Positions 4,448 through 25,617 of a DNA stretch of 25,743 nt are shown piece by piece (the first letter of the stretch is position 1; each line of letters begins with the position of its first letter). The DNA comes from Promethearchaeota archaeon Loki_b31. GTDB lineage: Archaea; Asgardarchaeota; Lokiarchaeia; Sigyniarchaeales; SOKP01. The stretch is from positions 1 to 25,743 of the forward strand of contig NJBI01000050.1 of assembly GCA_005222975.1 (NCBI GenBank), in the 5' to 3' direction. A program made the position numbers and the translations under genes. Below the pieces are notes generated by a model. That model saw only the letters and a list, made by a program, of their open reading frames with translations, ran no database searches and had not been told where the DNA came from.

Positions 4448-5830
4448 TTATTTTTTAATATTACGAAAATCAGGAATTATCTTTTGTAATCTCTCAATAA
4501 ATGTTTCAAATTCGTCAAAATTCTCTTTGAATGGTTCGAGTTCCGAGATTAATTTATCGTAGTTAGTAGATAGATTTGTTTCGAAAGGGTGGTTTATCGC
4601 ACTTATCCCTTTCAACATATCAATCGAAAGATTTTGGATTTGTTCCGTCAAACTTGAAATTTCTTTAGTTGAATTTTCAATTCTTTCTTTTATCTTCGCA
4701 TCTAGCATCGAAATCTCGTATAATTTATTAATTGTCTCGTTGAGATCTTTTTTAATCGACTTAGTGATATAATCAATACTCTGCTCTAAGTGTTTGTTTA
4801 TTTCGCTCGTTAAGATTTCTTTAATTTCGCTTGTATTAGCTTTCAAATCTTCTTGTCCTGGAAGGCGTTTATTTACATATCCTTCTACTTTTTCTTTATA
4901 TTCGTTAATCCTTTCTTTAAACTTCGTTTCTATCCATTTCTCTACTCTTTCAAAGCCATTATCTATTGTTAAATTCATTTGTGCTAACGAATCACTAATT
5001 TTATTTAGACCTTTTAACGCACCGTCGTTAAATTCAGACGACCAAGTTTCTAATTCCGATTTGTAATCATTTAAAACTAAGTTCGAAAAATTTTGTAATC
5101 CTTTTTTAAAACCATCTACAACTGGATTAATGTCTTGGTATTCTAAATCGATTTCCATTTCCAATTGTTCCGTGGACATTGGAATTTCTTGAAGGTCGCG
5201 CGGAACTTGTTCTCTTAATTCTAATCTTTCCTTAATTATTATAGGGTTTTTTATTTGTCCATATTCAACGAATTTTTGAACCCATTTGTAAAAATCTAAA
5301 GAGTTTGGCACCTCTATTTCGTATTTAACTTTTATATAATCGCTCTTATCTCCTTTTGAGTGATCTTTTAATCGAAAAACTTCTAAACCAAAATTATCTG
5401 ATTTTTTCAGTTTGGAATGGTCGAAAACAATTCCAAATCCATATTGGAATTTATCGTTCTGAAAATAAAGGTGATTTTTTTTATCAACATCAGCAAAGAA
5501 AAGCGTTTCAGCCTCAGGATGAGAGTGATACCATCCTACTACTGAAAGATTATCGCTTGAAGCTTCTTCTTGGATTTGGATAAGTGAATTGTGAATCTTT
5601 TCAGAAAAACCTAATTCTACTTCATCTCCATGCGTGATTGGAATAATCTTTGTTATGGTAATGTCATCGTTATCAGGGTTCTTTTTTCCAATGCAAAATC
5701 CAAGAACCTGTTCGTTATATTCTAGTACAACATTAGCGAATCTTAATACATGGGTAAACATGTCTTTAAAAGGGGTCATTTTAATGAAAACTCTACCTTT
5801 CTCGCTAATTTCTCGATTGTTATCTGTCAT
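4448..5830 (-). CDS. MPN/JAMM-domain protein with degenerate catalytic motif and long C-terminal helical/coiled-coil region
   Basis: Contains HVLRF..EQVLGFCIG..IPITHG..VGWYHSHPEAETLFFADVD. The catalytic Glu position reads Q and the motif Ser reads A. A GGAGG RBS-like sequence lies just upstream, in the end of the previous gene. Confidence 0.85.
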   Translation of the reverse strand: MTDNNREISEKGRVFIKMTPFKDMFTHVLRFANVVLEYNEQVLGFCIGKKNPDNDDITITKIIPITHGDEVELGFSEKIHNSLIQIQEEASSDNLSVVGWYHSHPEAETLFFADVDKKNHLYFQNDKFQYGFGIVFDHSKLKKSDNFGLEVFRLKDHSKGDKSDYIKVKYEIEVPNSLDFYKWVQKFVEYGQIKNPIIIKERLELREQVPRDLQEIPMSTEQLEMEIDLEYQDINPVVDGFKKGLQNFSNLVLNDYKSELETWSSEFNDGALKGLNKISDSLAQMNLTIDNGFERVEKWIETKFKERINEYKEKVEGYVNKRLPGQEDLKANTSEIKEILTSEINKHLEQSIDYITKSIKKDLNETINKLYEISMLDAKIKERIENSTKEISSLTEQIQNLSIDMLKGISAINHPFETNLSTNYDKLISELEPFKENFDEFETFIERLQKIIPDFRNIKK

Positions 5831-5832
5831 CT

Positions 5833-7287
5833 TTATTTGTTACCTCCTTGTTCTAGCTTCTTGATTTTTAATAATAGTTGTTTTTTTTCAGATTCTAATT
5901 TATCAATTTTCTCTAAAATAGGAGCTTTTGTGCCCTCCAAAATCAAAACAGCGGCTTTAAAATTTGTTAAGAATTTTTGCGACTTTTTATTAAGGTTGTT
6001 AAGGTTATTTAATATTATATTGTGTTTCTTTGAGGTCACATTGTAAGTTTCTTTTTGCATTGCTTTTATCTTATCAAGAGTAGCATTTTTTATTGATTTT
6101 ATTTGTTCAGATAAGGAAATTAATGAATTTTCTAATTTTTCTAAATTATCAAGATTAACAGACACGCTACCATTATAATCTATCAATTTTTTCTGGCAGT
6201 CATCAAAATCTCTCGAGAAATCATTTATTAATCCTTCGAACTTATCTTTAAATAGCGTATTAACTTTTTCTTTAACGATATCATTTATCTCTTTTAGTAA
6301 TTCGGCAATTTCTTCTTGATATCCGTCAATTTGGTCAAGAAAATCGTCAACATACCCTTCTGCTTTGAATAACTCCGAATTTAAATCGTCTTTGTATTTC
6401 CTTTGTATTTTATCAATTCCCGCGTTTATCCTATCTTTTAAAAGAGTTAAATCTTTTCTAATTTTTATATTATTACCTTCTATATTTGCTGAAATATTTA
6501 CGCTAAGAGAATTAAGGAAATTAATTAAAGGAGTTAACGATAAATCCAAAAAATTAGCGAGTCCTACTTGGAAAGAATCAATTATTTTGCGCTGATTTAT
6601 CTCTGGCTGTTTAAACTGTAATTGGCTAAGCTCAGGAACTTTTACATCTCCAAATATATCCACCGTTTCATTTTCTTCAGTTATGGGGGGTTCTCTCGAG
6701 TGTACATTATTAATTAATTCTATAATTTTAAAGTAATATTCAAAATTATCTGGTGTCTCAACGATTGTCTTAACTTGGTGAAAATTTGAATCTCGAATGT
6801 TTGATGGATTAGTTAATCGAATTGCTCTAAATCCAGGATCGTCGGGGCTATCTAAATAAGCATGATCAAAAACTAGCGCGATTCCACTAGGATTCAATTC
6901 GTTTTGCCAACCAAACTGGTTTTTAACATCTGTAGGTGAAAAGAAAATTTTATGCTGGAACAAATTGGGATGTGAATGATACCACCCAACCATGAACCAG
7001 TTCTTTTCCAAGTACAAGGAATTCGCTTTTTCAAAAAATATATAATCGTTAATCGAGAATTCTACTTCTACGCTGCTCCCGTGAGAAATTGGTATGGCAT
7101 CCTCAATAATGACATTCTTAAATTTTTTATCTTCGCCATCTTCAAGGTGTCCAATAAGTACTCCCATTACTTCGATACATTGAGAATTATTTTTAGCCCT
7201 ATTTCCAAAACGTAAGACGTGTAATATCATCTTATAATACGCGAGAGATTTGATCTTTACTACGCTGTTATCCACATCTTTCCCCAT
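5833..7287 (-). CDS. MPN+/JAMM metalloprotease-domain protein with long C-terminal helical/coiled-coil region
   Basis: Contains HVLRFG..IEVMGVLIG..AIPISHG..VGWYHSHPNLFQHKIFFSPTD. E, HxH, S and D are all present, with a longer H-to-S spacing (10 vs 7). Start is ATG 7287 (TTG 7293 in the track). Confidence 0.88.
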   Translation of the reverse strand: MGKDVDNSVVKIKSLAYYKMILHVLRFGNRAKNNSQCIEVMGVLIGHLEDGEDKKFKNVIIEDAIPISHGSSVEVEFSINDYIFFEKANSLYLEKNWFMVGWYHSHPNLFQHKIFFSPTDVKNQFGWQNELNPSGIALVFDHAYLDSPDDPGFRAIRLTNPSNIRDSNFHQVKTIVETPDNFEYYFKIIELINNVHSREPPITEENETVDIFGDVKVPELSQLQFKQPEINQRKIIDSFQVGLANFLDLSLTPLINFLNSLSVNISANIEGNNIKIRKDLTLLKDRINAGIDKIQRKYKDDLNSELFKAEGYVDDFLDQIDGYQEEIAELLKEINDIVKEKVNTLFKDKFEGLINDFSRDFDDCQKKLIDYNGSVSVNLDNLEKLENSLISLSEQIKSIKNATLDKIKAMQKETYNVTSKKHNIILNNLNNLNKKSQKFLTNFKAAVLILEGTKAPILEKIDKLESEKKQLLLKIKKLEQGGNK

Positions 7288-7512
7288 TTTCAATCACTTT
7301 AATTTTTAAATATAGATATACAAAATATTTTTGTTATATTTATACTTTGAACCATTTAAATTTTAAACACTTAATATAAAATATAATTTTATATCTTTTT
7401 TATTGATATTTGAAAATTTAAAAAATTAAGTACAGATATTTCAAAAAAGTAGTATTAAAATGTAAATTAAGAAGGAGTTATAATAAGGAAATAAAAAATT
7501 AAATCAAATTTT

Positions 7513-8157
7513 CTAATGCGGTAAAGGTTTTCCGCAGTAGGGACAGAATTTCCAATCCAAGTCTTTTCCACAATGAGGGCAAAATGTAGAAGCTGAGCCT
7601 CCTTCTCCTTTTGGAATCGCAGGCAACTCTCTTGTAGTTCTCAAAGAAGATGGAGCAGTACCAATCGCTTGCGCCCTTTTTTCTTCCTTTATTATCCTCA
7701 TTCTCTCTTGGAAAGCTTGGCGCTTTTCTTCTTCTAGTTCTTGGATCGACTTCATACCCTCCTCTTTAACCCACCCTGTTACTTTAGGTCTTTTTAATTC
7801 GCTTTCAGGAACTTTTTCTAACTCTACTTTTTTAGTTTCCGAAATTGGGGCAAAAGTTTTTTTTTGTTCTTTTTTCTCAATAGCTTGCTTTACCAAAGCT
7901 TGGGTGGTTTTCATGACTTGATGAGGATTTATATTTGGGATTGCTACCGTTCGCAAAGCCCAGCCGACTATAAGATTTTGGTTAGGAATACCAGATTCAC
8001 TTATATCTTCATCCTTAAAAACATATGAGTCAATAACAGACTTTCCTTTTAGCAAACGAGTTGCAAACTTGCCGTTTATAAGCCCTAATTGGATTCTATA
8101 CGACGTTCCTGAGATCCCCAGCTGACTCGACAACGGTTGAAATCCTTTCTCTGCCAT
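7513..8157 (-). CDS. Hypothetical protein with C-terminal zinc ribbon
   Basis: C-terminal FCPHCG-x6-FCPYCG, with a charged helical middle region. Start is ATG 8157 (TTG 8166 in the track). Confidence 0.82.
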   Translation of the reverse strand: MAEKGFQPLSSQLGISGTSYRIQLGLINGKFATRLLKGKSVIDSYVFKDEDISESGIPNQNLIVGWALRTVAIPNINPHQVMKTTQALVKQAIEKKEQKKTFAPISETKKVELEKVPESELKRPKVTGWVKEEGMKSIQELEEEKRQAFQERMRIIKEEKRAQAIGTAPSSLRTTRELPAIPKGEGGSASTFCPHCGKDLDWKFCPYCGKPLPH

Positions 8158-8394
8158 TTTAATCAACTATCCTTTACTATACAATTTTAATTAGTTGGAA
8201 TTGCAGTTAATTTAATTAAAAGTAATAATATAATCATAAATTTTGAATTTAAATAATTTTATATTCATCTCAAAAATAATTAGTATTTGTGGGGGTTTGA
8301 TTTTTTTATAATAAAAAAATTTCTTCAAAAAATAACACATAAATACACGTAATAGTATAAGGTTTACAAAAAATAATATATTTATAATTAAAAT

Positions 8395-9345
8395 ATGACA
8401 GTTTTTATCCCTAAAGATGTTTATTTAACTATAGTGGCTGCTTGCGTGAGACAGGCTAATAGACGCATTGATAAAGACGATTGGCTTGAAGTTTCAGGTA
8501 TTTTTATAGGAAAAAACGAAGGAAATGATGTCCTTATTACAAAAACTTATCCTATAATGCATCAAGAATTAGATAAAGACGCTGTTATCGATCAATATAA
8601 GTGGAGCGACGAAGATTATGAAGCACTATATATTATAGACGACGAAGCGTTTTCGAGGAACGAATTCACAGTAGGTTGGTGGCATTCTCATCCAGGATTC
8701 AAAATCATGATGAGCCACATAGATATCAAAACGACATTGAGCTATCAAACCAATAATCCGCTCGCAATATCGCTCGTGTTTAATCCTGATAGGTTAATAA
8801 GACAAATAGAGCTTCCTAATAAAAAAGGGGATCCGGTGAAACAGCTGAAAAACGATCCCGGTTTTAAGATATTTAGGTTAGACGATGTTACCAAAGGAAT
8901 ACAAGCATCGTATCATACTACAGATTACAAAATTGCGGGATATGAAAGCATGGAGCATTTGGTCGTATTAACACAGAAATTCGTAATCGACATTACTAAT
9001 ATGTTCCCTAAAGACAGCATATTTGAAACATACGATAAGTTCGTAACCGATAGGATTAACGAACTTAATTCTTTATTGCAAGGAACGGAAGAGTATTTAA
9101 TTACATTAATTAGAAAGGGGGAATCAAGTAGAGTACAAGAAGTTTTAAACGTTCAAACTCGAGATATTCGCAAATTTGTGGCTGAAACTTTTATAAAAAT
9201 TGAAAATATCAAGGAATTCACGAATTATTTGGAGTATAAAGAAAGAGAAAGTATTATTCCGAAAATAAAAGAAATATTATCTAAATGGGACGAAACTGTT
9301 GAAAAATTAGGCGTAAAATTGGCAGAAATTGCTAACAAATTCTAA
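8395..9345 (+). CDS. Rpn11/CSN5-like JAMM (MPN+) metalloprotease
   Basis: LEVSGIFIG plus a canonical HxH-x7-S-x2-D motif (VGWWHSHPGFKIMMSHID), followed by SYQ..AISLVFNP and a helical C-terminus. Confidence 0.9.
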   Translation: MTVFIPKDVYLTIVAACVRQANRRIDKDDWLEVSGIFIGKNEGNDVLITKTYPIMHQELDKDAVIDQYKWSDEDYEALYIIDDEAFSRNEFTVGWWHSHPGFKIMMSHIDIKTTLSYQTNNPLAISLVFNPDRLIRQIELPNKKGDPVKQLKNDPGFKIFRLDDVTKGIQASYHTTDYKIAGYESMEHLVVLTQKFVIDITNMFPKDSIFETYDKFVTDRINELNSLLQGTEEYLITLIRKGESSRVQEVLNVQTRDIRKFVAETFIKIENIKEFTNYLEYKERESIIPKIKEILSKWDETVEKLGVKLAEIANKF

Positions 9346-9451: not shown

Positions 9452-9622
9452 ATGACAGAAGTACAGCTTAAAGGCGAAAGATGTCCTGTTTGTAATGTTG
9501 AGATTGGTTGGAGTCAATTACCAGAACCCAACAAATTTAGAGGCAAGTGTCCTAATTGTGGTATGGGTTTCACATTTATGAATGGAACTATCTTTAGCGA
9601 CCCAAAATTTTCAAAAAAGTAA
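9452..9622 (+). CDS. Small zinc-ribbon protein (56 aa; absent from the ORF track)
   Basis: Manual translation: MTEVQLKGERCPVCNVEIGWSQLPEPNKFRGKCPNCGMGFTFMNGTIFSDPKFSKK*. It has CPxC and CPxCG knuckles. Confidence 0.8.
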   Translation: MTEVQLKGERCPVCNVEIGWSQLPEPNKFRGKCPNCGMGFTFMNGTIFSDPKFSKK

Positions 9623-9757: not shown

Positions 9758-10414
9758 ATGAAAACTGATCGAAATGATATTTCTTGTTTTGAGGTGTCTC
9801 CCTATTTAGATTATGATGAAGACAATATTTTTCTAGAATGGTATTTAATTGAAGGCGAAGATCGAATTAAAGAACTGTCAAGGCAATTACGTACATTTTT
9901 GAACTATAAAAAATCTATAATATATTTAAGATTTTCAAGATCTCAAAGTTTCAATTACACTCAAAAAGAAGATTTAATTATTAAGAATGAAAGAGCACTC
10001 AACATCTTAACTTCACAGCTTATAACCCTATTAAAAATGATTGGCTCAGAAAATGATGCGATTTCAGAGAGAATTATTGAACTAATTACTAAAATAAAGT
10101 CCAATCCAACTGAACTTGAACTCGACCAATTTAAAGAGTTAAATTCGTTAAGTAATGAAGTATGGACTCTGCTTCACATCTTATCTGAACTCGAGATTCA
10201 CAACCATCCACGACTTATGAAAAGGATATTAGTAATTGCAAGTATTTGTTGTGAAATAAAAAGCGCCTTGTTTCCATTCTTTTCTGAATATTATCTAGAA
10301 TTGCAGAAGGATTATCTTCTTTTAGAAAAAGAAATTTCTGGTTTAATAAGGATAACCACCAACGATCCTGCTCCATCTATAAAAAAGAGAATTAAGGTGA
10401 GAGTTCTCGAATGA
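9758..10414 (+). CDS. Hypothetical alpha-helical protein, coupled to the downstream HNH protein
   Basis: 218-aa ORF whose TGA overlaps the next ATG (ATGA, 10411-10414). No recognisable motif. Confidence 0.7.
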   Translation: MKTDRNDISCFEVSPYLDYDEDNIFLEWYLIEGEDRIKELSRQLRTFLNYKKSIIYLRFSRSQSFNYTQKEDLIIKNERALNILTSQLITLLKMIGSENDAISERIIELITKIKSNPTELELDQFKELNSLSNEVWTLLHILSELEIHNHPRLMKRILVIASICCEIKSALFPFFSEYYLELQKDYLLLEKEISGLIRITTNDPAPSIKKRIKVRVLE

Positions 10415-13278
10415 ACTCCCAAATCGAAACCGTAAATAGGAAAGTCCTTCAAGAAGAGAGCATCGCAATATGTTCCCAATTTGGATGCAATTATATTAAA
10501 AAAATAAAACCATTAAAATTCAAAATCTTTGGGTTTCGAAAATATCCCAAATGCTCGAACCATCATATACCCTTAGTGTTCATTGATGAGTTTGTAGGTA
10601 AATTTATTACGGGGGTTAATGCTTGCTTATTTGATATTTCGAGCTTACCTCCTAAGCAATTATTAGATCAAATTAAACATTCCTCACCTGAAGAGATGAG
10701 TCTATTTGTAAACGCGTGGATGTATAGCAGTCCCATAGGAAGGGGAGCTGAAATCGTTTCGAAATATTTTGATGGATTATCTAGGGGATATATTAAAGCA
10801 TTAAGCAGAAAACAGAGATCAGCACTAAATTCTGAATCTACCAAGAAAAATCATTATAAGACACTCCGTCAAGGATTAAAAAAACTCGTTGATGATTATA
10901 CTCTTTTCCTAAGAGAACTTCGTGATAAGTCAGGAGCCTTTTATGAACCTGAGAAATTAATACAATTTTCAAGAACTGTCCAGAATATCATCGAAAATTG
11001 GATGAAAAACCAATTAAATACTATTCAAACTCAAACTAATAAAAAAAATAAAGAATCGGATGATGTGAATGACTTAATAGCTCTTAAAGAAAAATACGAT
11101 AAGATCCTAAATGCACGGACTTCTACTTTACTTTTAGGAATACCCCTTGATAAAAAATCAAAGAAAATATCCGCTTTTGAACTCTTTTCGGCTTATAATG
11201 AATTTTTTCACGCAAATTTGAGTAAAGAAGTAAAAAAAGAAGATGTAGAGCATTTGTTAGAGGAGTTTAACTATAATTATAAAGAAAACAGATTAGTTCA
11301 CAATGGATCTTTTGAGAATTTAATTGAGCAAAACAATGAGTTAAGGATAAAGCATATCATAAAAGATCAATTGGAATTATTATTTGATTCAATAAGTATT
11401 AAACTAAATCTAAAGAACACAATTATAACGAGAAGTCTGAAAATACTTGACGAATTCATCATTAGATTTCATACGAAAAAGGTCAAAATATCTGAAAAAA
11501 CAGACCTTAAAGCTGTTTCAGCAGCTATAATCTATGCTGTTTTAGTTTCAAATGAAAAAATGCCTAAAATTAATATTTCAGACATATCTAAGTTGCCTAA
11601 CTATACAATCTCAAAATATTACGGAAGATATTTTAAAGAGCTATATATGAATAAACAGTTTAACTTTCCACCTTATTATAATTTTCAAAGAATCAGGGAT
11701 TTAATTTCTTTTGATATTTTTGAAAAAATAATATTAGATAAGTCTGGTTCAAAAATTTCAAATTATGCTTTAGATTTACAGAAAAACTGTGATAAATTAC
11801 GACGTCTATTATCTAAAGAAGATCTTTTATTAATACAGGAGCTCTATAAAAACCATTTCGATAAATCTGTTAAATATTTTTCAGAATTAGCTGAAACCAT
11901 AAAATATCTCTATACCATTTCTATAATGTATAAAAAAATAAGAACAAATCTAATCATAAAACCTCTTGCAAAATACTTATTTAACAAAGAAATTACCATG
12001 TTCCAAGGTTTTAAAACATTTTATAATTCAATTATAGAGATATTTGATTTTCTTTATAAAAAATTTCCAGATATTCTTCCAAAACGATCAAAAACAGATA
12101 ATCATAACGAAAAACTTTATTCATCTCTAATTGGTAGTAGAATAAAGCTTTATCTCATTAAAAACCTTTATAACGGTAAATTTTTCAAGAGTGGAAAAGG
12201 AGAATGCCCAGAGTGTAAGAAAGAAGGATATAAAATAAATACAAATATTTCGAGATTAAAAGCATTGGAATTCCATCACACTACTGATGAAAAAGAGCAT
12301 AAATATTCTGCTACTGTTTTGTATGAATTGTTCAATGAAAATAGAGACAATCCTTTATTTTTAGAAAACCTAATCAAATCAATGGAATTAAAAAAAATCA
12401 CTCTTATATGTGCTAATCATCATGATATAGTTTCTTCTAAATATTATAATTTTTTCAGACATCTAATATCTTGGAAAGATTTACCAAATTATTTTCCTGA
12501 TAAAATACAATCTCTCTCTCCTGAATTAATTCATGCTCTTATAAAAATTTCAATTAATGCTTATCCAATTACTAAAAATCTAAATTCAAAACAAAAAGCA
12601 TACATAAAGCTTAGTATTATAAGTTTGTTAAAAAGAAAATATATTATTGAAACTCTATATGGTGAATCTTGCCAAATTTGTGGAGAATTTAACACAATTG
12701 AACATTTAGTATCATTTCATTTTAATCACATAGATGAAACAAAAAAGACCTTAGTAGCTTCTAATCTTTTTAAATCTGAAGAAATTACTTGTTCTGAGAT
12801 TGTCAGTAAACTTGATCAAGAACGTGGTGGATATTTATGTAATAATTGTCATACTGTTTTTCATAGGAGTAGTTATTATGATTTATTAGAACATGTCTAT
12901 ATTGATGAGAATGTTATGGAGAAAGTCTCTAAAGATCATATTCATGTGAAGCAAAATTTTAAACTTGTTTATAGTAGCGAATTGATTAAAGATCCATTTA
13001 AATTATCTAAGAGATTAAGTGGTAATTTTGAAAAATGTTTAATAGCTATTGATAAATTATCCAAAACGGGTGGAATTATAACTAACAGGATCTTAGCTAA
13101 TGCTCTTGGTGTTAAATCCCCTAAGATAGTAGCCCAATTTTTTGATAGAAATGAATATCTTAAACAATTTATAAGAATAAGTAGAGAGGATAGAATCACT
13201 GAGTATGAACTAACTAAAAAAGGTTTTAAAGCTCTATCATTGATGAATTATTTTAAGAAATATTATTCATCTCGGTGA
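10411..13278 (+). CDS. Multidomain putative nuclease: N-terminal Cys/His cluster, TFIIB/cyclin-like segment, two Zn-binding HNH-like domains, C-terminal winged helix
   Basis: Motifs in order: CSQFGC..CSNHH; AVSAAIIYAV..NISDISKLPNYTISKYY; CPEC..LEFHH..LICANHH; CQICG..FHFNH..LCNNCHTVFH; ITNRILANALGV..YELTKKG. Confidence 0.75.
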   Translation: MNSQIETVNRKVLQEESIAICSQFGCNYIKKIKPLKFKIFGFRKYPKCSNHHIPLVFIDEFVGKFITGVNACLFDISSLPPKQLLDQIKHSSPEEMSLFVNAWMYSSPIGRGAEIVSKYFDGLSRGYIKALSRKQRSALNSESTKKNHYKTLRQGLKKLVDDYTLFLRELRDKSGAFYEPEKLIQFSRTVQNIIENWMKNQLNTIQTQTNKKNKESDDVNDLIALKEKYDKILNARTSTLLLGIPLDKKSKKISAFELFSAYNEFFHANLSKEVKKEDVEHLLEEFNYNYKENRLVHNGSFENLIEQNNELRIKHIIKDQLELLFDSISIKLNLKNTIITRSLKILDEFIIRFHTKKVKISEKTDLKAVSAAIIYAVLVSNEKMPKINISDISKLPNYTISKYYGRYFKELYMNKQFNFPPYYNFQRIRDLISFDIFEKIILDKSGSKISNYALDLQKNCDKLRRLLSKEDLLLIQELYKNHFDKSVKYFSELAETIKYLYTISIMYKKIRTNLIIKPLAKYLFNKEITMFQGFKTFYNSIIEIFDFLYKKFPDILPKRSKTDNHNEKLYSSLIGSRIKLYLIKNLYNGKFFKSGKGECPECKKEGYKINTNISRLKALEFHHTTDEKEHKYSATVLYELFNENRDNPLFLENLIKSMELKKITLICANHHDIVSSKYYNFFRHLISWKDLPNYFPDKIQSLSPELIHALIKISINAYPITKNLNSKQKAYIKLSIISLLKRKYIIETLYGESCQICGEFNTIEHLVSFHFNHIDETKKTLVASNLFKSEEITCSEIVSKLDQERGGYLCNNCHTVFHRSSYYDLLEHVYIDENVMEKVSKDHIHVKQNFKLVYSSELIKDPFKLSKRLSGNFEKCLIAIDKLSKTGGIITNRILANALGVKSPKIVAQFFDRNEYLKQFIRISREDRITEYELTKKGFKALSLMNYFKKYYSSR

Positions 13279-13352: not shown

Positions 13353-15595
13353 ATGGTAAAAAGGATTAATTTCCCATTTACAGCAATACTCGGTCAAGAT
13401 AAAATGAAAATGGCTCTCATTTTAAATGTTATTGACCCTCAAATTAGTGGAGTATTACTAACTGGGCAACAAGGAACTGGAAAATCGACTGCTGTGAGAA
13501 GTTTAGCTGAATTAATGCCTGAGATTGATGCGGTTAAAGGATGCGTATTTTCATGCGAACCAAGTTCAGAGATTGAAGATTTATGTGATGAATGTCGTAT
13601 TAAACACAAGAATGGAACTTTGGAAAAAATTAAAAGAAGTATGCCTATCGTTGATTTACCATTAGGAGTAACCGAAGATATGGTTTGCGGTTCACTGTCT
13701 ATTGATAAAGTACTTACAGAAGGAATCCGAAGTCTTCATCCAGGCTTACTCGCTAAAGCGAATCGAGGAATTTTATATGTCGATGAGATTAATTTATTAC
13801 AAGATCATATTGTTGATGTGCTTTTAGATTCCGCTGCTTCTGGAGTTAACATCATAGAACGTGAAGGAATTTCAGTTGCTCATCCATCTCGATTTGTATT
13901 AGTCGGAAGCATGAACCCCGAAGATCCTACTTTCATGTCGAATTAGGATTCGGAAAGGGAGAGCTCCGACCGCAGATAGCCGATCGTCTTGGATTAGAAG
14001 TTAAGATAAAAGCACCTAGAGATAGCAAGTTGCGAGCAGAGATTACAAAAAGTGTTATTGATTTTAACGATAACCCAAAGGATTTTATTGAGAAATACAA
14101 GCAAAAACAAGAAGATTTAAAAAAGAAAATCGTGAATGCTCGTCAAATTATAAAGGAAGTCCAAATTCCCTCAACTGTTTACGAATTCATATCAAGATTA
14201 GTTAGCGAATTGGATATTTTTTCACAAAGAGCAGATATCACGTTTATAAGATGCGCGAGAACTCACGCTGCACTCAATGGTCGAAAAGAAGTTATTGAAG
14301 AAGACTTAAATGCGGCTATGGAATTAGTGTTTGAGCATAGAATTCGATCGCTCCATTACGAGATGACTCCTGAAGAAGTTAAGGCGAAAATATTTGAAGT
14401 TTACGGAAAGATACAAAAAGCTTACGAGGATCCAAATATTTATCAACCAAATAGAGAAACTGAAGGACCGTTAAAGCACGACGACACCCCTCAAAAGGAA
14501 TTCAAAAGACAATCTGTTGATCCAAGAAAAATTGACATTCCAGAGTCAAAAGAACAAAAACTTCCACCCCCTAAATACCCTGATAATAAAAAAAGAAACC
14601 CAACACCTGGTGGAGGATGGAAGGTAAAAGATATTCCTGAATCTGACGAGCGAGATTTCATTTTTTTTGAAAACGGATTAGGTTCGATGCCATTAATTTA
14701 CAACATGGAAAGAAAAATGACTTCAATACTAGATAATATTCGAAAAGATCGAAAAATATCTGATTACGGAGGTAGAGGAATTGGGCGGCGCATAAAAATA
14801 GCTTCTTCTCAAAAGGGAAGGTATGTTTCATATCGACAGCCTATTAATCGACCTAAAAGTATAGCTCTTGATGCAACAATAAGGACTTATTTGAAAAATA
14901 CTATATATAATCAAACGGAAGTAGACTTTCCAATAAAATTTGATAAATACGATTTAATGGATAAAGTGTACGAATATCGCGCGCCATTAGTTTTATTTTT
15001 TGTACTCGACAGTTCCGCTTCGATGTATTACGTAATTAAACAAATGAAAGATGTAATTCTATCGTTACAACGAGAAGGATACCGGAAAAAGGATAAAATA
15101 AGCCTCATCATCTTTAGAGGAAAAGAAGCCGTCGTTCTTCAGAAACCTACCGTTTACTTTAAAACTGCTGTAAATAAAATGAAAAAGATTGAAGGAAAGT
15201 CTTACACGCCTATGGCAGCAGCGTTGACAAAATGTCTAAAGCTTATAAACGCTGAAAAGTTAAAGAATAGAAATATGATTCCCGTTATTTTTGTCTGTTC
15301 GGACTGCGGAGCTAACATTTCCTATAAATTTCCTGATTTAATTGCGCAAGTTCAAACAGACTACACATTAATTGTAAACGAATTAAAAGCATTAACAAAG
15401 AACTTATCCAAAAAAGGAGCACATATGGTCGTTTTAGAGCCGAAGAAGTCATATGCGACTAGATCCTTGGGCGTAAATACGTTTGCTGCGGATAATATTA
15501 AAAAGAACTTTAAAGAATACGGAAAAGCAGAGATATTTCAATTTGATGGCTATGACACTAAAAACTTAATTTTAGAACTTAAGAAAATCCTTTAA
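13353..15595 (+). CDS. ChlI/ChlD (Mg/Co-chelatase subunit D-like) AAA+ ATPase with Pro-rich linker and vWA domain; join(13353..13923,13956..15595), 736 aa after removal of a 32-nt insertion
   Basis: FPFTAILGQ, Walker A GQQGTGKS, PGLLAKANRGILYVDEINLL, reconstructed GSMNPEEGELRPQIADRLGL, SQRADI, and vWA MIDAS DSSAS..T..SD. Exon 2 is open from 13956 and in frame with track ORF 14030..15595. Confidence 0.88.
13924..13955 (+). other. Candidate archaeal bulge-helix-bulge (BHB-like) mRNA intron, 32 nt
   Basis: Sequence ATCCTACTTTCATGTCGAATTAGGATTCGGAA. Central helix CCGA(13918-21)/TCGG(13950-53), bulges AGA(13922-24) and AAA(13954-56), inner stem (A)TCCTA/TAGGA(T), outer pairs CC/GG. Cuts after the 2nd nt of each bulge give GAA-GAG-GGA (E-E-G) in frame. 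Confidence 0.8.
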
Positions 15596-21561: not shown

Positions 21562-24500
21562 ATGAGTTCAATTAAAAAGTCAAAAAGTTTTAATGTTACA
21601 AAATTATTCGAATCAGACGAAAAGCTTACTTTTTTAGTGGGTGCGGGAGCTTCGATCGAAGCGCCTTCTCAATTACCATCAACTAATGATACGATGAAGG
21701 CACTAATTAAGCTTTCCTGCGCTAATTCTGAGATCGAAACAATCTTGAAATTACAAAATCTGAGGTTTGAGGTTTTAGTAGGAATTATTCACAAATCGAT
21801 TGAGGACGATTTTCGATTTCTAAACTTTTTTACAAAAAGCGATAAACCCAATCTTGAGCATTTTGTTCTAGCTGAAATGATAAAAAAGGGAAATTATATT
21901 ATTACCAGTAACTTCGATTTTCTGTTAGAATACGCTTTGCTACAATCTAATGTTCCTAAAAAGAAGATTGTTCCTGTAATAACTAAGAAAGATTACGAAA
22001 AATTCAGTGACCCAGAAAAGTTGTATAAAAATGGAAAGATACCCGTTTATAAAATTCATGGTTCTCATAGAAACATCATCACCGGTGAAGATACGAGAAA
22101 TTCGTTTATCAATACTTTAAAATTAATTGGGCTGAACCAAACAGAGAGTAACATCGTCCAATTAGAGCCCTATAAAGCACAATTCTTAGATAAAATCTCA
22201 AACGAACGTTCACTTATAATAATTGGTTATTCTGGTAAAAATGATTTCGACCTTATGTCGACCCTTAAAATAATGAAAAATTTAAAAAATTTAATCTGGA
22301 TAAATCACATTTCAGACGGAGGATCAAAGGAAGACCTCTACGAATTTGACGCACAAAAGGGTAGTGATCTTAAAAATCTAGATAAATTGGACCAATCCTT
22401 GTTAGAAATTAAGCAATTAAATGGTTCTGTCAATGTTTTTCGATTAAATGTGAATACTTCCAAATTTCTTGAGAAATTCTTTAAGGAAAAAGAAAAATTA
22501 AGTAAAGATAAATTTTCTATTGACTTAATGGAATGGTTTAAAACTAACATTGATGAACCCAACGAATTAACTAAGTTGTTTATATCTAATAAAATCTACT
22601 TTGAGACTAAAAACTATACCGATGCTTTAAGGTGTTTAGAAAGAATTTTTCGGATAAGTGAAGATTCGGGAAATACCCAATGGAAAGCATTTGCTCTTAT
22701 GGAAATGGGAATTATCAACTATGTTCAATTAAATTATAGCGATGCTTTAGAATGGTTGCGTAAATCCTTACAAGTTCAGCTAAAATTAAAAGCCTTTCCT
22801 CAACGAACTTCAATTTTTAAATATATTGCCCTAATTCACCAAGCTCAGAAAAATTATTCTGAGGCTTTACAAAATTTTGAATTTGCTTTAAAGGAAAACG
22901 AACGAATTAAAGATTTTTATGAAAAATCTAAATTATACAAACATATTGGTATTAATCATCAATATCAAGAGAAATATCAGGATGCTCTAAAGTATTTCGA
23001 AGCTGCAATTAAAATTAATGACAGGCTTGAAAATCTTAGCGAAAAAATGTTTAATTACAAGCAAATAGGGAAAATTTACTATTCAAAAAAGAATTTTAAC
23101 GAGGCACTTAAATATTTTAATGAAGCTTTGAAACTTAGCGAGCAATTTGAAAACCTTGAAGATAAAGCAGAAAATCTTAATTTCTTAGGGCGTATATTTC
23201 ATGAAATGGGCGATTCCCTAAATGGTTTGGATAAGTGTAACGAAGCTTTGAGGATTTATGATCGGTTAAAAAATTATGAAGGGAAATTGGATTCTCTAAA
23301 TTATTTAGGGATAATTTACAGAGATCAGTGGAATTACATCAAAGCTCTAGATTATTTTGAGGATGGGTTTCAAATTGCTGAAAACTTGGGGAAAATCGAG
23401 TTAAAAGCCAACTTCTCAAACCAAATAGGTACAATTTTCCAAAATCAAGATAAATATTCTGAAGCGCTAAAATGGTTTGAAGATTCTTTAAAACTCTTTG
23501 ATCAGGCAGGAGACCTTAAAGGGAAAGTAGATGTGTTAAAAAAAATAGGACTTATACATAAAGGGCAAAAAATGTATCTAAAAGCTTTAAGACGATTTGA
23601 AAAGGCATTAGAGATATTTGAGCGCCTTGAAGATTTAAACAGTAAAGCCTCCACTCTTAATGTCATAGGACAAATTTATCTGGACCAAAGAAAGTTTTTA
23701 GAGTCACTTAGAAATTTTCAAGAAGCTCTTAAAATTTGTGGAGAAACAGAAAACCTTGAAGGAAATGCTGACACTTTGAAAAATATTGGAAATTTCTATG
23801 CCGAACAAGCAAATTTCAAAGAAGCTTTGAGTATGTATAAGAATGCCCTAGATGTTGTTAATAAATTAGGCAAAAAAGGGAAAAAGGCTGAATTACTTAA
23901 CAAGATAGGATCTATTTTCCAAGATCAGGGTGTGTATTCTCAAGCTATGGAAAAATTTGAAGAATCGCTTGAAATCTTCAATCAGGAAAATAATATGGAA
24001 GGGAGAATTGAAAGTCTTCATTTGATTGGTATAAACTACCATTATTTAGGACAAGATAATGAAGCTTTAAAGGTATTTGAAGAGGCAGTTCAAATTGCTG
24101 AGCAAATTGGAAATCTACACAAAAAAGCACTCTGTCTTAACATTATAGGTGATATATTTCGAGAAAAATGGGATTATGTTGAGGCTTTAAAACGCTATGA
24201 AGAGGCTTTACTGATAGCGGATGAATTAGACCATCTTGATGAACAAATTCAAATACTTATTATTATTAGCAAAATATATCAAGCCCAAAAGCATTATCCA
24301 GAAGCTATAAGACATTATAACGAAGCAGTCTATGTTTCAGAAAGTATAGGAAATCTTGAAACCAAAGCGGATATCTTCACAAGTATAGGGGATATCTATT
24401 TTGACGAGGATAATTTTCCAGAAGCGTTAAAAATGTACGAAGCAGCGTTAAAAATTGACGATCAACTAGGAAATGCGAAAGGGAAAGCACAAAGGCTTCT

Positions 24501-25617
24501 ATGTATTGGTAATGTTTTCTTGGTTCATAAGAAATACAATGACGTATTAAAAAAATATAGGGAAGCGTTAGAAATCGAAGAACAACTAGGAAATTTAACT
24601 AATGAAGCTGCAATTATACGAAAAATTGGGGATATTTATAGGGTTCAAGAGCATTTCAATGAGGCTCTAAAGTGGTACGAAGATGCTTATAAATTATTCG
24701 ATGAAATTGAGAATCTAGAAGGTAACGCTGATTGTTTTGAGAGCATAGGTTCAATTTATCAAAATTTAGATAACTATCCTGAAGCATTGAAGTGGTATAG
24801 CGAATCTCTTAAGATAGCCACACAAATTTATGACGATGACAGGAAAGCACAAATTCTTTGTAAAGTAGGTGTTATTTTCCACGAGCAAGGTATATATAAA
24901 GATGCTTTTAAACGTTATAATCTCGCTCTTGATTTATTTGATAAAAGAGGAGACTTGATCGGTAAAACATATTGTTTAAATAAAATTGGGTTAGTGTATC
25001 AAGATCGAGGTGATTACAACCAAGCTCTTAAGTGGTACGATCGAGGAACAAAACTGTTTAAAGTTTTAGGACCATCAAATGAGAGAGCCGAAAATCTTTA
25101 TAACACGGCTATGATTTACCGCGACCAAGGATTGTACCTTGACGCTTTAAAAACTTTTGAACAATCTTTAAAAATAGACGAAGAGTTAAACAATCTTTCT
25201 AGAAAGGCAGAAAGTCTTAACAACATAGGGTTGATATATTTAGACGAAGGCAATTATCCCGTTGCGTTAAAACGTTTCGAGGAGGCTTCGAAAATAGCTG
25301 ATAAAAACGATGATAAGAAGAAGAAAGCTCAATATATTAATAATATAGGTTTAACTTATCTCAATCAAGGGAAATATGCTGATGCGTGGAAAAGCTGTAA
25401 TAAAGCCCTTAAAATATTCGAGGATATTGAAAACAGTGAGGGAATAGCAGACAGTCAATATAAATTAGGATTAACATATTTAGAACAAAAATCTTATATG
25501 GAAGCTTTAAAAATTCATGAAAATGCGCTTAATACGCTTATTCAGAGTGGTACAGGAAAAGTCCCTTTAGCAAAAGTTCTTAAGAGCAATATAAGATTGA
25601 TTAAAAGTAAAATATAA
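21562..25617 (+). CDS. SIR2-like domain protein with long TPR array
   Basis: FLVGAGAS..LP, ITSNFD, KIHGS and IIGYSGKNDFD in the first ~250 aa, then ~25 TPR-like units. Confidence 0.9.
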   Translation: MSSIKKSKSFNVTKLFESDEKLTFLVGAGASIEAPSQLPSTNDTMKALIKLSCANSEIETILKLQNLRFEVLVGIIHKSIEDDFRFLNFFTKSDKPNLEHFVLAEMIKKGNYIITSNFDFLLEYALLQSNVPKKKIVPVITKKDYEKFSDPEKLYKNGKIPVYKIHGSHRNIITGEDTRNSFINTLKLIGLNQTESNIVQLEPYKAQFLDKISNERSLIIIGYSGKNDFDLMSTLKIMKNLKNLIWINHISDGGSKEDLYEFDAQKGSDLKNLDKLDQSLLEIKQLNGSVNVFRLNVNTSKFLEKFFKEKEKLSKDKFSIDLMEWFKTNIDEPNELTKLFISNKIYFETKNYTDALRCLERIFRISEDSGNTQWKAFALMEMGIINYVQLNYSDALEWLRKSLQVQLKLKAFPQRTSIFKYIALIHQAQKNYSEALQNFEFALKENERIKDFYEKSKLYKHIGINHQYQEKYQDALKYFEAAIKINDRLENLSEKMFNYKQIGKIYYSKKNFNEALKYFNEALKLSEQFENLEDKAENLNFLGRIFHEMGDSLNGLDKCNEALRIYDRLKNYEGKLDSLNYLGIIYRDQWNYIKALDYFEDGFQIAENLGKIELKANFSNQIGTIFQNQDKYSEALKWFEDSLKLFDQAGDLKGKVDVLKKIGLIHKGQKMYLKALRRFEKALEIFERLEDLNSKASTLNVIGQIYLDQRKFLESLRNFQEALKICGETENLEGNADTLKNIGNFYAEQANFKEALSMYKNALDVVNKLGKKGKKAELLNKIGSIFQDQGVYSQAMEKFEESLEIFNQENNMEGRIESLHLIGINYHYLGQDNEALKVFEEAVQIAEQIGNLHKKALCLNIIGDIFREKWDYVEALKRYEEALLIADELDHLDEQIQILIIISKIYQAQKHYPEAIRHYNEAVYVSESIGNLETKADIFTSIGDIYFDEDNFPEALKMYEAALKIDDQLGNAKGKAQRLLCIGNVFLVHKKYNDVLKKYREALEIEEQLGNLTNEAAIIRKIGDIYRVQEHFNEALKWYEDAYKLFDEIENLEGNADCFESIGSIYQNLDNYPEALKWYSESLKIATQIYDDDRKAQILCKVGVIFHEQGIYKDAFKRYNLALDLFDKRGDLIGKTYCLNKIGLVYQDRGDYNQALKWYDRGTKLFKVLGPSNERAENLYNTAMIYRDQGLYLDALKTFEQSLKIDEELNNLSRKAESLNNIGLIYLDEGNYPVALKRFEEASKIADKNDDKKKKAQYINNIGLTYLNQGKYADAWKSCNKALKIFEDIENSEGIADSQYKLGLTYLEQKSYMEALKIHENALNTLIQSGTGKVPLAKVLKSNIRLIKSKI
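22681..25560 (+). repeat. 24 consecutive 40-aa TPR-like coding repeats, with one more degenerate unit upstream
   Basis: Regular 120-nt register of xKA..L..IG..Y.....Y..AL..(F/Y)E.AL.I units from WKAFALMEMG to GIADSQYKLG. Confidence 0.88.

What the first reader, a model, noticed from the sequence alone, without database searches (positions are those of the whole stretch)
13911..13990. Candidate tRNA-endonuclease-type (BHB) intron inside a protein-coding chelatase-like AAA+/vWA gene
Seen in sequence: the conserved ChlI/ChlD motif MNPEEGELRPQ is split by exactly 32 extra nt that carry an in-frame TAG (13944-46) and shift the frame. The insert is a hairpin (ATCCTA/TAGGAT plus TTC/GAA). Its junctions pair with the exons as a 4-bp helix CCGA/TCGG, flanked by AGA on the 5' strand and AAA on the 3' strand, and closed by CC/GG. 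Established: archaeal splicing endonuclease (EndA) cuts BHB motifs after the 2nd nt of each 3-nt bulge and RtcB ligates; the well-known mRNA case is crenarchaeal cbf5. Applying that rule gives cuts at 13923/24 and 13955/56, which removes 32 nt and regenerates GAA GAG GGA GAG (EEGE) and a 736-aa ORF with Walker A/B, Arg-finger region and MIDAS intact. The structure-predicted cut sites and the homology-required deletion agree independently. Inference: this is a spliced mRNA in a probable Asgard archaeon, in a gene family I do not know to carry such introns. Caveats: the 5' bulge is imperfect (A13924 can pair with T13949, or T13949 is left unpaired) and the outer stem is only 2 bp, so a relaxed-specificity endonuclease would be needed.
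Basis: partly seen in the sequence, partly recalled or inferred. Interest (0 to 1): 0.95.

Follow-up and report, generated by a model that had tools for sequence, protein, structure and literature searches.

The report
tRNA-type mini-intron in Asgard ATPase gene
A working ATPase gene of an Asgard (Loki-type) archaeon is split by a 32-base insert shaped like the introns archaea cut out of tRNAs, so its messenger RNA is very probably spliced, and the insert has spread sideways between species, usually next to a selfish DNA-cutting-type gene; the papers I could search describe such splicing inside an archaeal coding region only for cbf5.

Summary
A 32-nt insert (13924-13955) breaks the only ChlI/D-like AAA+/vWA gene of a Promethearchaeia genome. 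It folds as a relaxed bulge-helix-loop, matched by about 1 in 10,000 random inserts. Homologous inserts sit at this site in 8 other species genomes; most of the other ~110 orthologues are intact. Relatives fix the boundary where the EndA rule cuts. Both exons are under purifying selection (dN/dS 0.02-0.14). The genome encodes a two-subunit EndA with the broad-specificity loop, plus RtcB. At least 7 other genes, including single-copy aIF2-gamma and DnaG, carry 29-33-nt inserts of this kind.

Splicing itself is not shown. An RNA contig of the sister lineage lacks exactly 32 nt, but an intron-less DNA allele of that lineage also exists.

One allele received it as a 66-82-nt patch, and 6 of 7 species alleles with the upstream double-HNH-like cassette carry it, which suggests collaborative homing (about 55%).

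The scan has noted both BHB mRNA introns and nuclease pairing before on other Asgard DNA. New variant of a known kind.

The parts
13353..13923 (+). Exon 1 of the ChlI/ChlD-like AAA+/vWA gene (Walker A, Walker B, sensor-1 up to the first base of codon 191)
13924..13955 (+). 32-nt BHB/BHL-type intron with in-frame TAG 13944-46; inner helix 13925-29/13944-48, hairpin 13932-34/13940-42 with 5-nt loop, unpaired U13949
13916..13924 (+). 5' half of the splice motif: outer helix 13916-17, central helix 13918-21, 5' bulge 13922-24 (cut 13923/24)
   Evidence: cut rule from PMC2738675
13950..13958 (+). 3' half of the splice motif: central helix 13950-53, 3' bulge 13954-56 (cut 13955/56), outer helix 13957-58
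13956..15595 (+). Exon 2 (Arg-finger region, AAA lid, Pro-rich linker, vWA with MIDAS)
13890..13987 (+). Extended exon-exon stem that backs the 2-bp outer helix (predicted)
13353..14032 (+). Block (exon 1 + intron + 77 nt of exon 2) with a different ancestry from the rest of the gene; breakpoint at 14032/14033
10411..13278 (+). 955-aa free-standing protein with two CxxC..H..CxN(C/H)H HNH-like units and a C-terminal winged helix; candidate homing-type nuclease ending 74 nt before the host start codon
   Evidence: HNH fold search inconclusive
9758..10414 (+). 218-aa partner gene of the cassette, overlapping the nuclease-like gene (ATGA)
8395..9345 (+). JAB/MPN gene; directly adjacent to the host gene in genomes without the cassette, so it marks the cassette's insertion interval

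Best explanation
The insert is a real ORF-less intron of the archaeal tRNA type. Steps: (1) SHOWN by sequence and prediction: the pre-mRNA folds a 4-bp helix with a 3-nt 3' bulge and a 3x1 loop at the 5' site. (2) INFERRED from known enzymology: the cell's (alpha-beta)2 EndA, which has the L1/CSL broad-specificity loop, cuts after the second base of each bulge (13923/24 and 13955/56), and RtcB joins the exons, giving the 736-aa AAA+/vWA protein. (3) SHOWN by comparison: the intron spreads between species by gene conversion at this one site. (4) INFERRED, about 55%: the drive comes from the upstream double-HNH-like cassette, which cuts intron-less alleles near this site while the intron shields its own allele (collaborative homing). 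The confidence given is for steps 1-3.
For: Boundary and structure: (94.6% of cells paired; C-G to U-A compensatory change in the inner helix). G026 and GCA_030605085.1 carry a 30-nt version one base over that is a canonical BHB and still restores EEG. G086 has a second, textbook BHB insert at aa 108/109. Function kept: single copy in the genome; no second lesion; dN/dS 0.02-0.14 in both exons among close intron-bearing alleles, against 0.03-0.08 in intron-less pairs. Machinery: catalytic alpha subunit with Tyr/His/Lys and a loop aligning to the A. pernix CSL, a beta subunit lacking the His, and RtcB; PMC5829648 reports L1 in Asgard EndA. Census: 8 of 1263 conserved genes are broken by 29-33-nt inserts; 4 of 8 meet the strict motif class against 0 of 28 open in-frame indels of 21 nt or more; aIF2-gamma (P-loop) and DnaG are among them and single-copy. 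Mobility: G127's intron is 31/32 identical to G096's while exon 2 is about 73% identical; L303 has the G000-type intron as a 66-82-nt patch in a G107-type gene; exon-1 and exon-2 trees conflict (p-AU 5e-8), and one clade of intron bearers is rejected (p-AU 5e-5). Cassette: 6 of 7 species alleles with it, or a remnant, upstream carry the intron; 4 of 10 cassette-family loci in this genome flank an intron-split gene, 0.13 expected. RNA contig X18 is 32 nt short at this site.
Against: No spliced read of this organism was seen. The RNA contig is closest to intron-bearing G107 (8/249 mismatches) but nearly as close to the intron-less DNA allele L299 (12/249), so it does not prove splicing. The 5' site is relaxed, and A13924 or A13922 is predicted to pair with U13949 in most of the ensemble. 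Covariation rests on 8 related sequences and essentially one event. The HNH call rests on motifs and weak hits only (Pfam E 0.065-0.14; fold Z under 3). Most relatives of the cassette at other loci have no detectable intron-split neighbour. G084 has a cassette remnant without the intron; G096, G106, G107 and L303 have the intron without the cassette.
Confidence: 0.92

Rival explanations
1. The intron is spliced, but its spread is ordinary recombination or hitch-hiking in a recombination-prone region; the upstream cassette targets some other site or is only a neighbour.
For: The cassette family sits beside many genes without detectable introns. Four intron alleles lack it. G084 has it without the intron. 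G000 and G097 share the nuclease gene (94%) but have different exon-1 blocks. Nuclease activity is untested.
Against: Short conversion patch centred on the intron (L303); 6 of 7 co-occurrence across three genera, plus GCA_030605085.1; 4 of 10 cassette loci in G000 flank split genes. Kin are not independent, so these counts overstate significance.
Confidence: 0.4
2. The insert inactivated the gene (a pseudogene, or a dead hairpin element).
For: The frame is broken at DNA level; the host gene's function and essentiality are unknown.
Against: dN/dS 0.02-0.14 on both sides over dS 0.13-0.45, with no second lesion; single copy; same-type inserts in aIF2-gamma and DnaG; the intron pattern occurs only at this site in 135 genomes, so it is not a dispersed repeat.
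Confidence: 0.02
3. No splicing: the ribosome bypasses or frameshifts over the hairpin, or two separate polypeptides are made.
For: Hairpin plus stop codon resembles bypass signals in general (own knowledge); an in-frame TTG exists at aa 216.
Against: A restart at aa 216 drops aa 191-215, including the Arg-finger region. Homologous inserts of 30, 31 and 32 nt occur at the site and would need three different recoding events, whereas the BHB rule restores EEG in each.
Confidence: 0.04
4. Splicing is regulated and works as an on/off switch for the ATPase (not exclusive of the best explanation).
For: The relaxed 5' site could be cut slowly; the same idea was proposed for cbf5 (PMC2738675).
Against: Most orthologues lack the intron, and an allele nearly identical to intron-bearing ones (L299) lacks it; patchy sideways spread fits a tolerated parasite better than a needed regulator.
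Confidence: 0.12
5. Assembly or sequencing artefact.
For: The genome is a MAG.
Against: Independent DNA run and 8 other species assemblies carry it.
Confidence: 0.003

Closest known systems
cbf5 pre-mRNA intron of Desulfurococcales and Sulfolobales (Watanabe 2002; Yoshinari 2006; Yokobori 2009, PMC2738675)
   Same: Short (16-44 nt) ORF-less intron in a conserved motif of a coding region, often with a relaxed BHB; cut between the 2nd and 3rd bulge base by a hetero-oligomeric EndA; patchy gain and loss.
   Different: Different phylum (Promethearchaeota) and host gene; one of at least 8 such genes in the genome; at least three occupied positions or registers in this gene across relatives; clear sideways spread with short conversion tracts and an adjacent nuclease-like cassette; splicing not yet demonstrated here.
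BHB intron in the 5' UTR of Haloferax HVO_1309 (PMC7714728)
   Same: EndA-type intron in an mRNA.
   Different: Untranslated region, euryarchaeal enzyme; not needed to restore a reading frame.
Non-canonical tRNA introns of Asgard archaea (bioRxiv 10.64898/2026.10.13.758758; PMC11291895 not read in detail)
   Same: Same lineage group, same motif and enzyme, repeated gains; the route of arrival is stated there as the open problem.
   Different: Those are in tRNA genes; a text search of the preprint found no mention of mRNA. Here a route of spread is visible.
Collaborative and trans homing in phages (free-standing endonuclease with an endonuclease-lacking group I intron; T4 MobE; reviewed in PMC2988022)
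   Same: ORF-less intron in a conserved site next to a free-standing nuclease gene; co-conversion of flanking sequence.
   Different: Those introns are self-splicing ribozymes in phage genomes; this is a 32-nt protein-spliced intron in an archaeal chromosome, and cleavage is untested.
Archaeal rRNA BHB introns that encode homing endonucleases (discussed in PMC2738675)
   Same: BHB-spliced intron made mobile by a homing nuclease.
   Different: There the nuclease ORF is inside the intron and the host is rRNA; here it is outside, about 650 nt upstream of the intron, and HNH-like.

Membership tests
EndA-spliced (BHB/BHL) archaeal intron | 4-bp central helix between exon 1 and intron end | tested here: met
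   CCGA/UCGG, pair probabilities 0.63-1.0; 96.9% of cells paired in 8 alleles
EndA-spliced (BHB/BHL) archaeal intron | 3-nt bulge at the 3' splice site closed by an exon helix | tested here: met
   13954-56 closed by CC/GG, probability 0.88-0.99
Canonical hBHBh' motif | Strict 3-nt bulge at the 5' splice site | tested here: not met
   Conserved extra U makes a 3x1 loop in all 31-32-nt alleles; canonical only in the 30-nt alleles of G026 and L321. Filed as relaxed (BHL-like).
EndA-spliced (BHB/BHL) archaeal intron | Cuts after the 2nd base of each bulge restore the functional sequence | tested here: met
   EEG restored in 30-, 31- and 32-nt alleles; register fixed by alleles starting with T or G
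EndA-spliced (BHB/BHL) archaeal intron | Host encodes an EndA able to cut relaxed motifs, and a ligase | tested here: met
   alpha subunit with L1/CSL-like loop, beta subunit and RtcB present; activity itself not measured
EndA-spliced (BHB/BHL) archaeal intron | Spliced RNA exists in vivo | tested here: inconclusive
   RNA contig 32 nt short, but the intron-less DNA allele L299 of the same haplotype group exists
EndA-spliced (BHB/BHL) archaeal intron | Cleavage by the cognate EndA in vitro | not testable with these tools
   Needs biochemistry
Collaborative homing unit | Free-standing endonuclease gene next to the intron-bearing gene | tested here: inconclusive
   Adjacency met; invariant CxxC..H..CxNCH motif, but only weak profile and fold support
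Collaborative homing unit | Co-conversion of flanks and sideways spread of the intron | tested here: met
   L303 patch of 66-82 nt, breakpoint at 14032/33, conflicting trees
Collaborative homing unit | Nuclease cuts the intron-less allele at or near the insertion site and spares the intron-bearing allele | not testable with these tools
   Needs cleavage assay
Group I or II intron, or other curated RNA family | Ribozyme core or Rfam match | tested here: not met
   32 nt is too short for a ribozyme core (own knowledge); no Rfam match at E<=1
Mg/Co chelatase subunit (host gene) | Equivalog score and a CobN/ChlH partner | tested here: inconclusive
   An intact orthologue scores below all cut-offs (TIGR02442 586 vs 779); PF02514 not found in a 92%-complete genome

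The most novel reading that the evidence does not exclude
Loki-type Asgard archaea splice about 1% of their mRNAs with the tRNA endonuclease, and these 30-nt ORF-less introns are spread by free-standing homing-type nucleases next to them. At this locus a double-HNH cassette would cut the empty MNPEEG site, and the intron would be copied in as a patch of under 100 bp. The intron-less allele L299, whose junction codons match intron-bearing alleles and none of 63 other intron-less ones, may be a precise loss through spliced RNA. Together that would be a full gain-spread-loss cycle for protein-spliced mRNA introns in the prokaryotes closest to eukaryotes.
Probability: 0.5. Interest if true: 0.9.

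Novelty: new variant of a known kind. Interest (0 to 1): 0.8.

Why it matters
The papers I could search document EndA splicing inside an archaeal coding region only for cbf5. If this holds, routine mRNA splicing exists in Asgard archaea, including in essential genes (aIF2-gamma, DnaG). Gene callers then split or mislabel such genes as pseudogenes. How BHB introns arrive and spread is stated as open in a 2026 preprint on Asgard tRNA introns. This locus offers a natural allele series (empty, 30, 31 and 32 nt; with and without cassette; a short conversion patch) that makes both splicing and nuclease-driven spread directly testable in vitro. It shows that gene-in-pieces architecture can spread without a spliceosome; it does not show ancestry to spliceosomal introns.

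Tried and rejected
RNA proof: run X18 gave a contig 32 nt short at the site. I first read this as spliced mRNA, because all three sequenced genomes of that haplotype carry the intron. A metagenome scan then found an intron-less DNA allele of the same haplotype (L299), so it was downgraded to inconclusive. Runs X17 and X19 do not cover the junction. No raw RNA reads and no same-sample DNA were available.

HNH confirmation by structure: two AlphaFold models (pLDDT 90 and 87). Searches returned the winged helix (Z up to 9) and only weak HNH rows (Z 2.3-2.7: retron HNH, Cas9 HNH, Endo VII, IscB), so this is inconclusive. PADLOC gave no hit for the 955-aa protein and the ESM Atlas only a lead under 0.9.

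Dispersed-repeat or MITE origin: the intron pattern occurs once per genome and only here. Rfam: nothing.

General rule that the cassette always sits by an intron: not supported at most other loci, though flanks were short. LAGLIDADG neighbours at C99 and C32 rest on a single motif each, with Pfam E 0.015 or none, and were not counted.

The 30-nt insert at aa 341-344 in G123, G110, G098, G126, L304 and L306 does not fit BHB removal in frame and was not counted as an intron.

The census is a lower bound: the reference G044 is 81% complete, and inserts noted by other readers in RadA, histones and an ABC ATPase were not recovered. Fisher and Poisson values ignore kinship; the 0-of-30 control typed there should read 0 of 28.

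Four literature searches aimed at archaeal or Asgard coding-region introns found no report for Asgard archaea; subscription papers are not covered.

Full report
OBSERVATION. The first ORF ends at TAG 13944-46. Removing 13924-13955 yields a 736-aa frame with Walker A, Walker B, the MNPEEGELRPQ motif and MIDAS. The halves match Mg_chelatase and AAA_lid_2 plus VWA. Random genomic 32-mers between the same exons give a full central helix plus five inner pairs in 1.1e-4 of trials. A DNA run of another study spans the insert without a gap. The window is contig C12 of a 3.5-Mb MAG whose closest named relatives are Promethearchaeota.

RELATIVES. 125 of 135 family genomes match exon 1, and most have an open frame of about 735-755 aa. 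The same site holds a 32-nt insert in G096, G127, G122, G106, G107 and G097, a 31-nt insert in G086, and a homologous 30-nt insert one base over in G026. G130 has an unrelated 30-nt insert two bases over. In G000 alone homology cannot tell 13924-55 from 13925-56. In G106, G107, G097 and G086 the first intron base is T or G, so only the cut after 13923 restores Glu, which is the cut the bulge rule predicts. The 30-nt alleles (G026, GCA_030605085.1) are canonical BHBs in the shifted register and also restore EEG. G086 has a second, textbook BHB insert at aa 108/109, and GCA_030605085.1 has a 31-nt insert at aa 107/108. Across 8 alleles 94.6% of cells pair, with one clear compensatory change in the inner helix; relatedness limits its weight. 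All 31-32-nt alleles keep an extra U opposite the 5' bulge, so the motif is relaxed (BHL-like). The outer 2-bp helix is backed by a long exon-exon stem.

THE GENE IS ALIVE. It is single-copy and has no second lesion. Among close intron-bearing alleles dN/dS is 0.04-0.10 in exon 1 and 0.02-0.14 in exon 2, against 0.03-0.08 in intron-less pairs. A restart at the next in-frame start (aa 216) would drop the Arg-finger region, and inserts of 30, 31 and 32 nt argue against a recoding signal. What the protein does is open: an intact orthologue is below all chelatase cut-offs, no CobN/ChlH was found, and the gene sits between JAB and ATP-grasp genes.

MACHINERY. The genome encodes two EndA subunits and RtcB. 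One has the Tyr/His/Lys triad and a loop aligning to the Crenarchaea-specific loop of A. pernix; the other lacks the His. PMC5829648 states that only such enzymes cut relaxed motifs efficiently and that Asgard EndA has this loop. A tRNA-Pro gene on C52 carries a BHB-flanked insert in the variable region, read by eye. A motif-free census against G044 found 8 of 1263 conserved genes broken by 29-33-nt inserts. Four meet my strict motif class, six have a full central helix at a homology-optimal cut, and none of 28 open in-frame indels of 21 nt or more meets the strict class. Two of the eight are single-copy aIF2-gamma (frameshift in the P-loop) and DnaG, which the cell cannot plausibly do without (established knowledge). 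This is the strongest indirect argument that mRNA is spliced.

RNA EVIDENCE. Metatranscriptome run X18 has a 923-nt contig aligned to 13776-13924 and 14033-14499 with 76 letters between, which is exactly 32 nt short. Its letters match the G107/G106/G097 haplotype, whose genomes carry the intron. However, DNA contig L299 (JABUBM010000142.1) has that haplotype without the intron, and X18 differs from G107 at 8 and from L299 at 12 of 249 sites. One of five known alleles of the group is empty, so the contig favours splicing only modestly. L299's junction codons equal those of intron-bearing alleles and occur in none of 63 other intron-less alleles. It is either a precise loss or the pre-insertion allele. 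G000 encodes one reverse transcriptase.

MOBILITY. The intron has not followed the species tree. G127's intron is 31/32 identical to G096's although exon 2 is about 73% identical. G000 and G096 group with G107, G097 and L303 on exon 2 (100/100), but exon 1 rejects that group (p-AU 5e-8); the switch lies at 14032/33. One clade of intron bearers is rejected on both exons. L303 has a G107-type gene with the G000-type intron and six G000-type flanking sites, a patch of 66-82 nt. Its right edge shares only 2 nt between the two types, too little for an assembly chimera. The intron family occurs nowhere else in 135 genomes.

THE CASSETTE. Between the JAB gene and the host lies a two-gene unit absent from most relatives. 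Its 955-aa protein has two CxxC..H..CxN(C/H)H units with invariant residues and a winged helix. Profile and fold support for HNH is weak, so 'nuclease' is an inference from motifs. The unit or a remnant lies upstream of the host in G000, G097, G026, G127, G086 and G122 (all with the intron) and in G084 (without). G096, G106 and G107 have the intron but no cassette. GCA_030605085.1 and L301 add two more cassette-plus-intron cases. In G000, 4 of 10 loci of this cassette family flank an intron-split gene, against 0.13 expected, but most family members elsewhere have no detectable split neighbour. I infer collaborative homing as defined for phages (PMC2988022) at about 55%.

COMPARISON AND VERDICT. 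It works like the cbf5 intron (PMC2738675) and meets every sequence-testable feature of a relaxed EndA intron. It is not a canonical BHB, and in vivo splicing is unproven. PMC7714728 lists cbf5 and one 5' UTR as the known mRNA cases, and my searches found no Asgard coding-region case. Earlier notes of this scan report the same phenomenon, and the nuclease pairing, on other Asgard DNA. I treated them as leads; my cassette idea was noted before I read the homing notes. Verdict: real intron, 0.92; new variant of a known kind; interest 0.8.

Noticed in passing
G123, G110, G098, G126, L304, L306 at host aa 341-344 (e.g. L043, L044): A 30-nt in-frame insert with TAA ends the AAA part in a conserved PL-stop; looks like gene fission or a decayed intron. 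In L304/L306 it lies in a near-perfect hairpin whose BHB-rule removal (32 nt) would shift the frame. Unexplained. G000's exon 1 is closest to these alleles.
   Followed up: partly
G000 contigs C99:11833-11802, C45:8619-8648, C68:1278-1310, C8:23629-23600, C32:7244-7216, C54:5290-5319, C46:25888-25918: Seven other genes split by 29-33-nt inserts (aldolase, AAA ATPase, hydrolase-like, sugar-kinase-like, aIF2-gamma, DnaG, SBF/Acr3-type transporter). C45, C54 and C46 flank the same cassette family; C99 and C32 flank ORFs with one LAGLIDADG-like motif.
   Followed up: partly
L039 (G086) aa 108/109; L321 and L322 aa 107/108; L038 (G130) aa 191/192: Further independent inserts in the same host gene; two genomes carry two introns in it.
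   Followed up: partly
introns of this locus and of C54, C99, G130, G086: Many of these mini-introns close with a 5-nt loop, often ending in TC or reading AATTC; possibly a shared origin or recognition feature.
   Followed up: no
window 9452-9622 +: 56-aa double-CxxC zinc-ribbon ORF between the JAB gene and the cassette; similar DNA in G110 and G097.
   Followed up: no
window 4448-9345: Three JAB/MPN paralogues next to the AAA+/vWA, ATP-grasp and roadblock genes, syntenic across the family; suggests a tagging or remodelling module rather than tetrapyrrole chelation.
   Followed up: no
window 21562-25617 +: 1351-aa SIR2-like plus TPR-repeat protein, possibly defence-related.
   Followed up: no
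G000 C32:7609-7241 (minus): aIF2-gamma has an N-terminal extension of about 100 aa that looks by eye like helix-hairpin-helix repeats, also present in G044.
   Followed up: no
G000 tRNA genes: Only 23 tRNAs were called and several have inserts outside 37/38 (e.g. tRNA-Pro C52:9361-9464), suggesting more hidden intron-split tRNAs.
   Followed up: no
L086 (DATKTW010000008.1): A contig labelled Nanopelagicaceae bacterium carries the Loki-type JAB plus ATPase locus at 80-82% identity; probably mis-binned.
   Followed up: no
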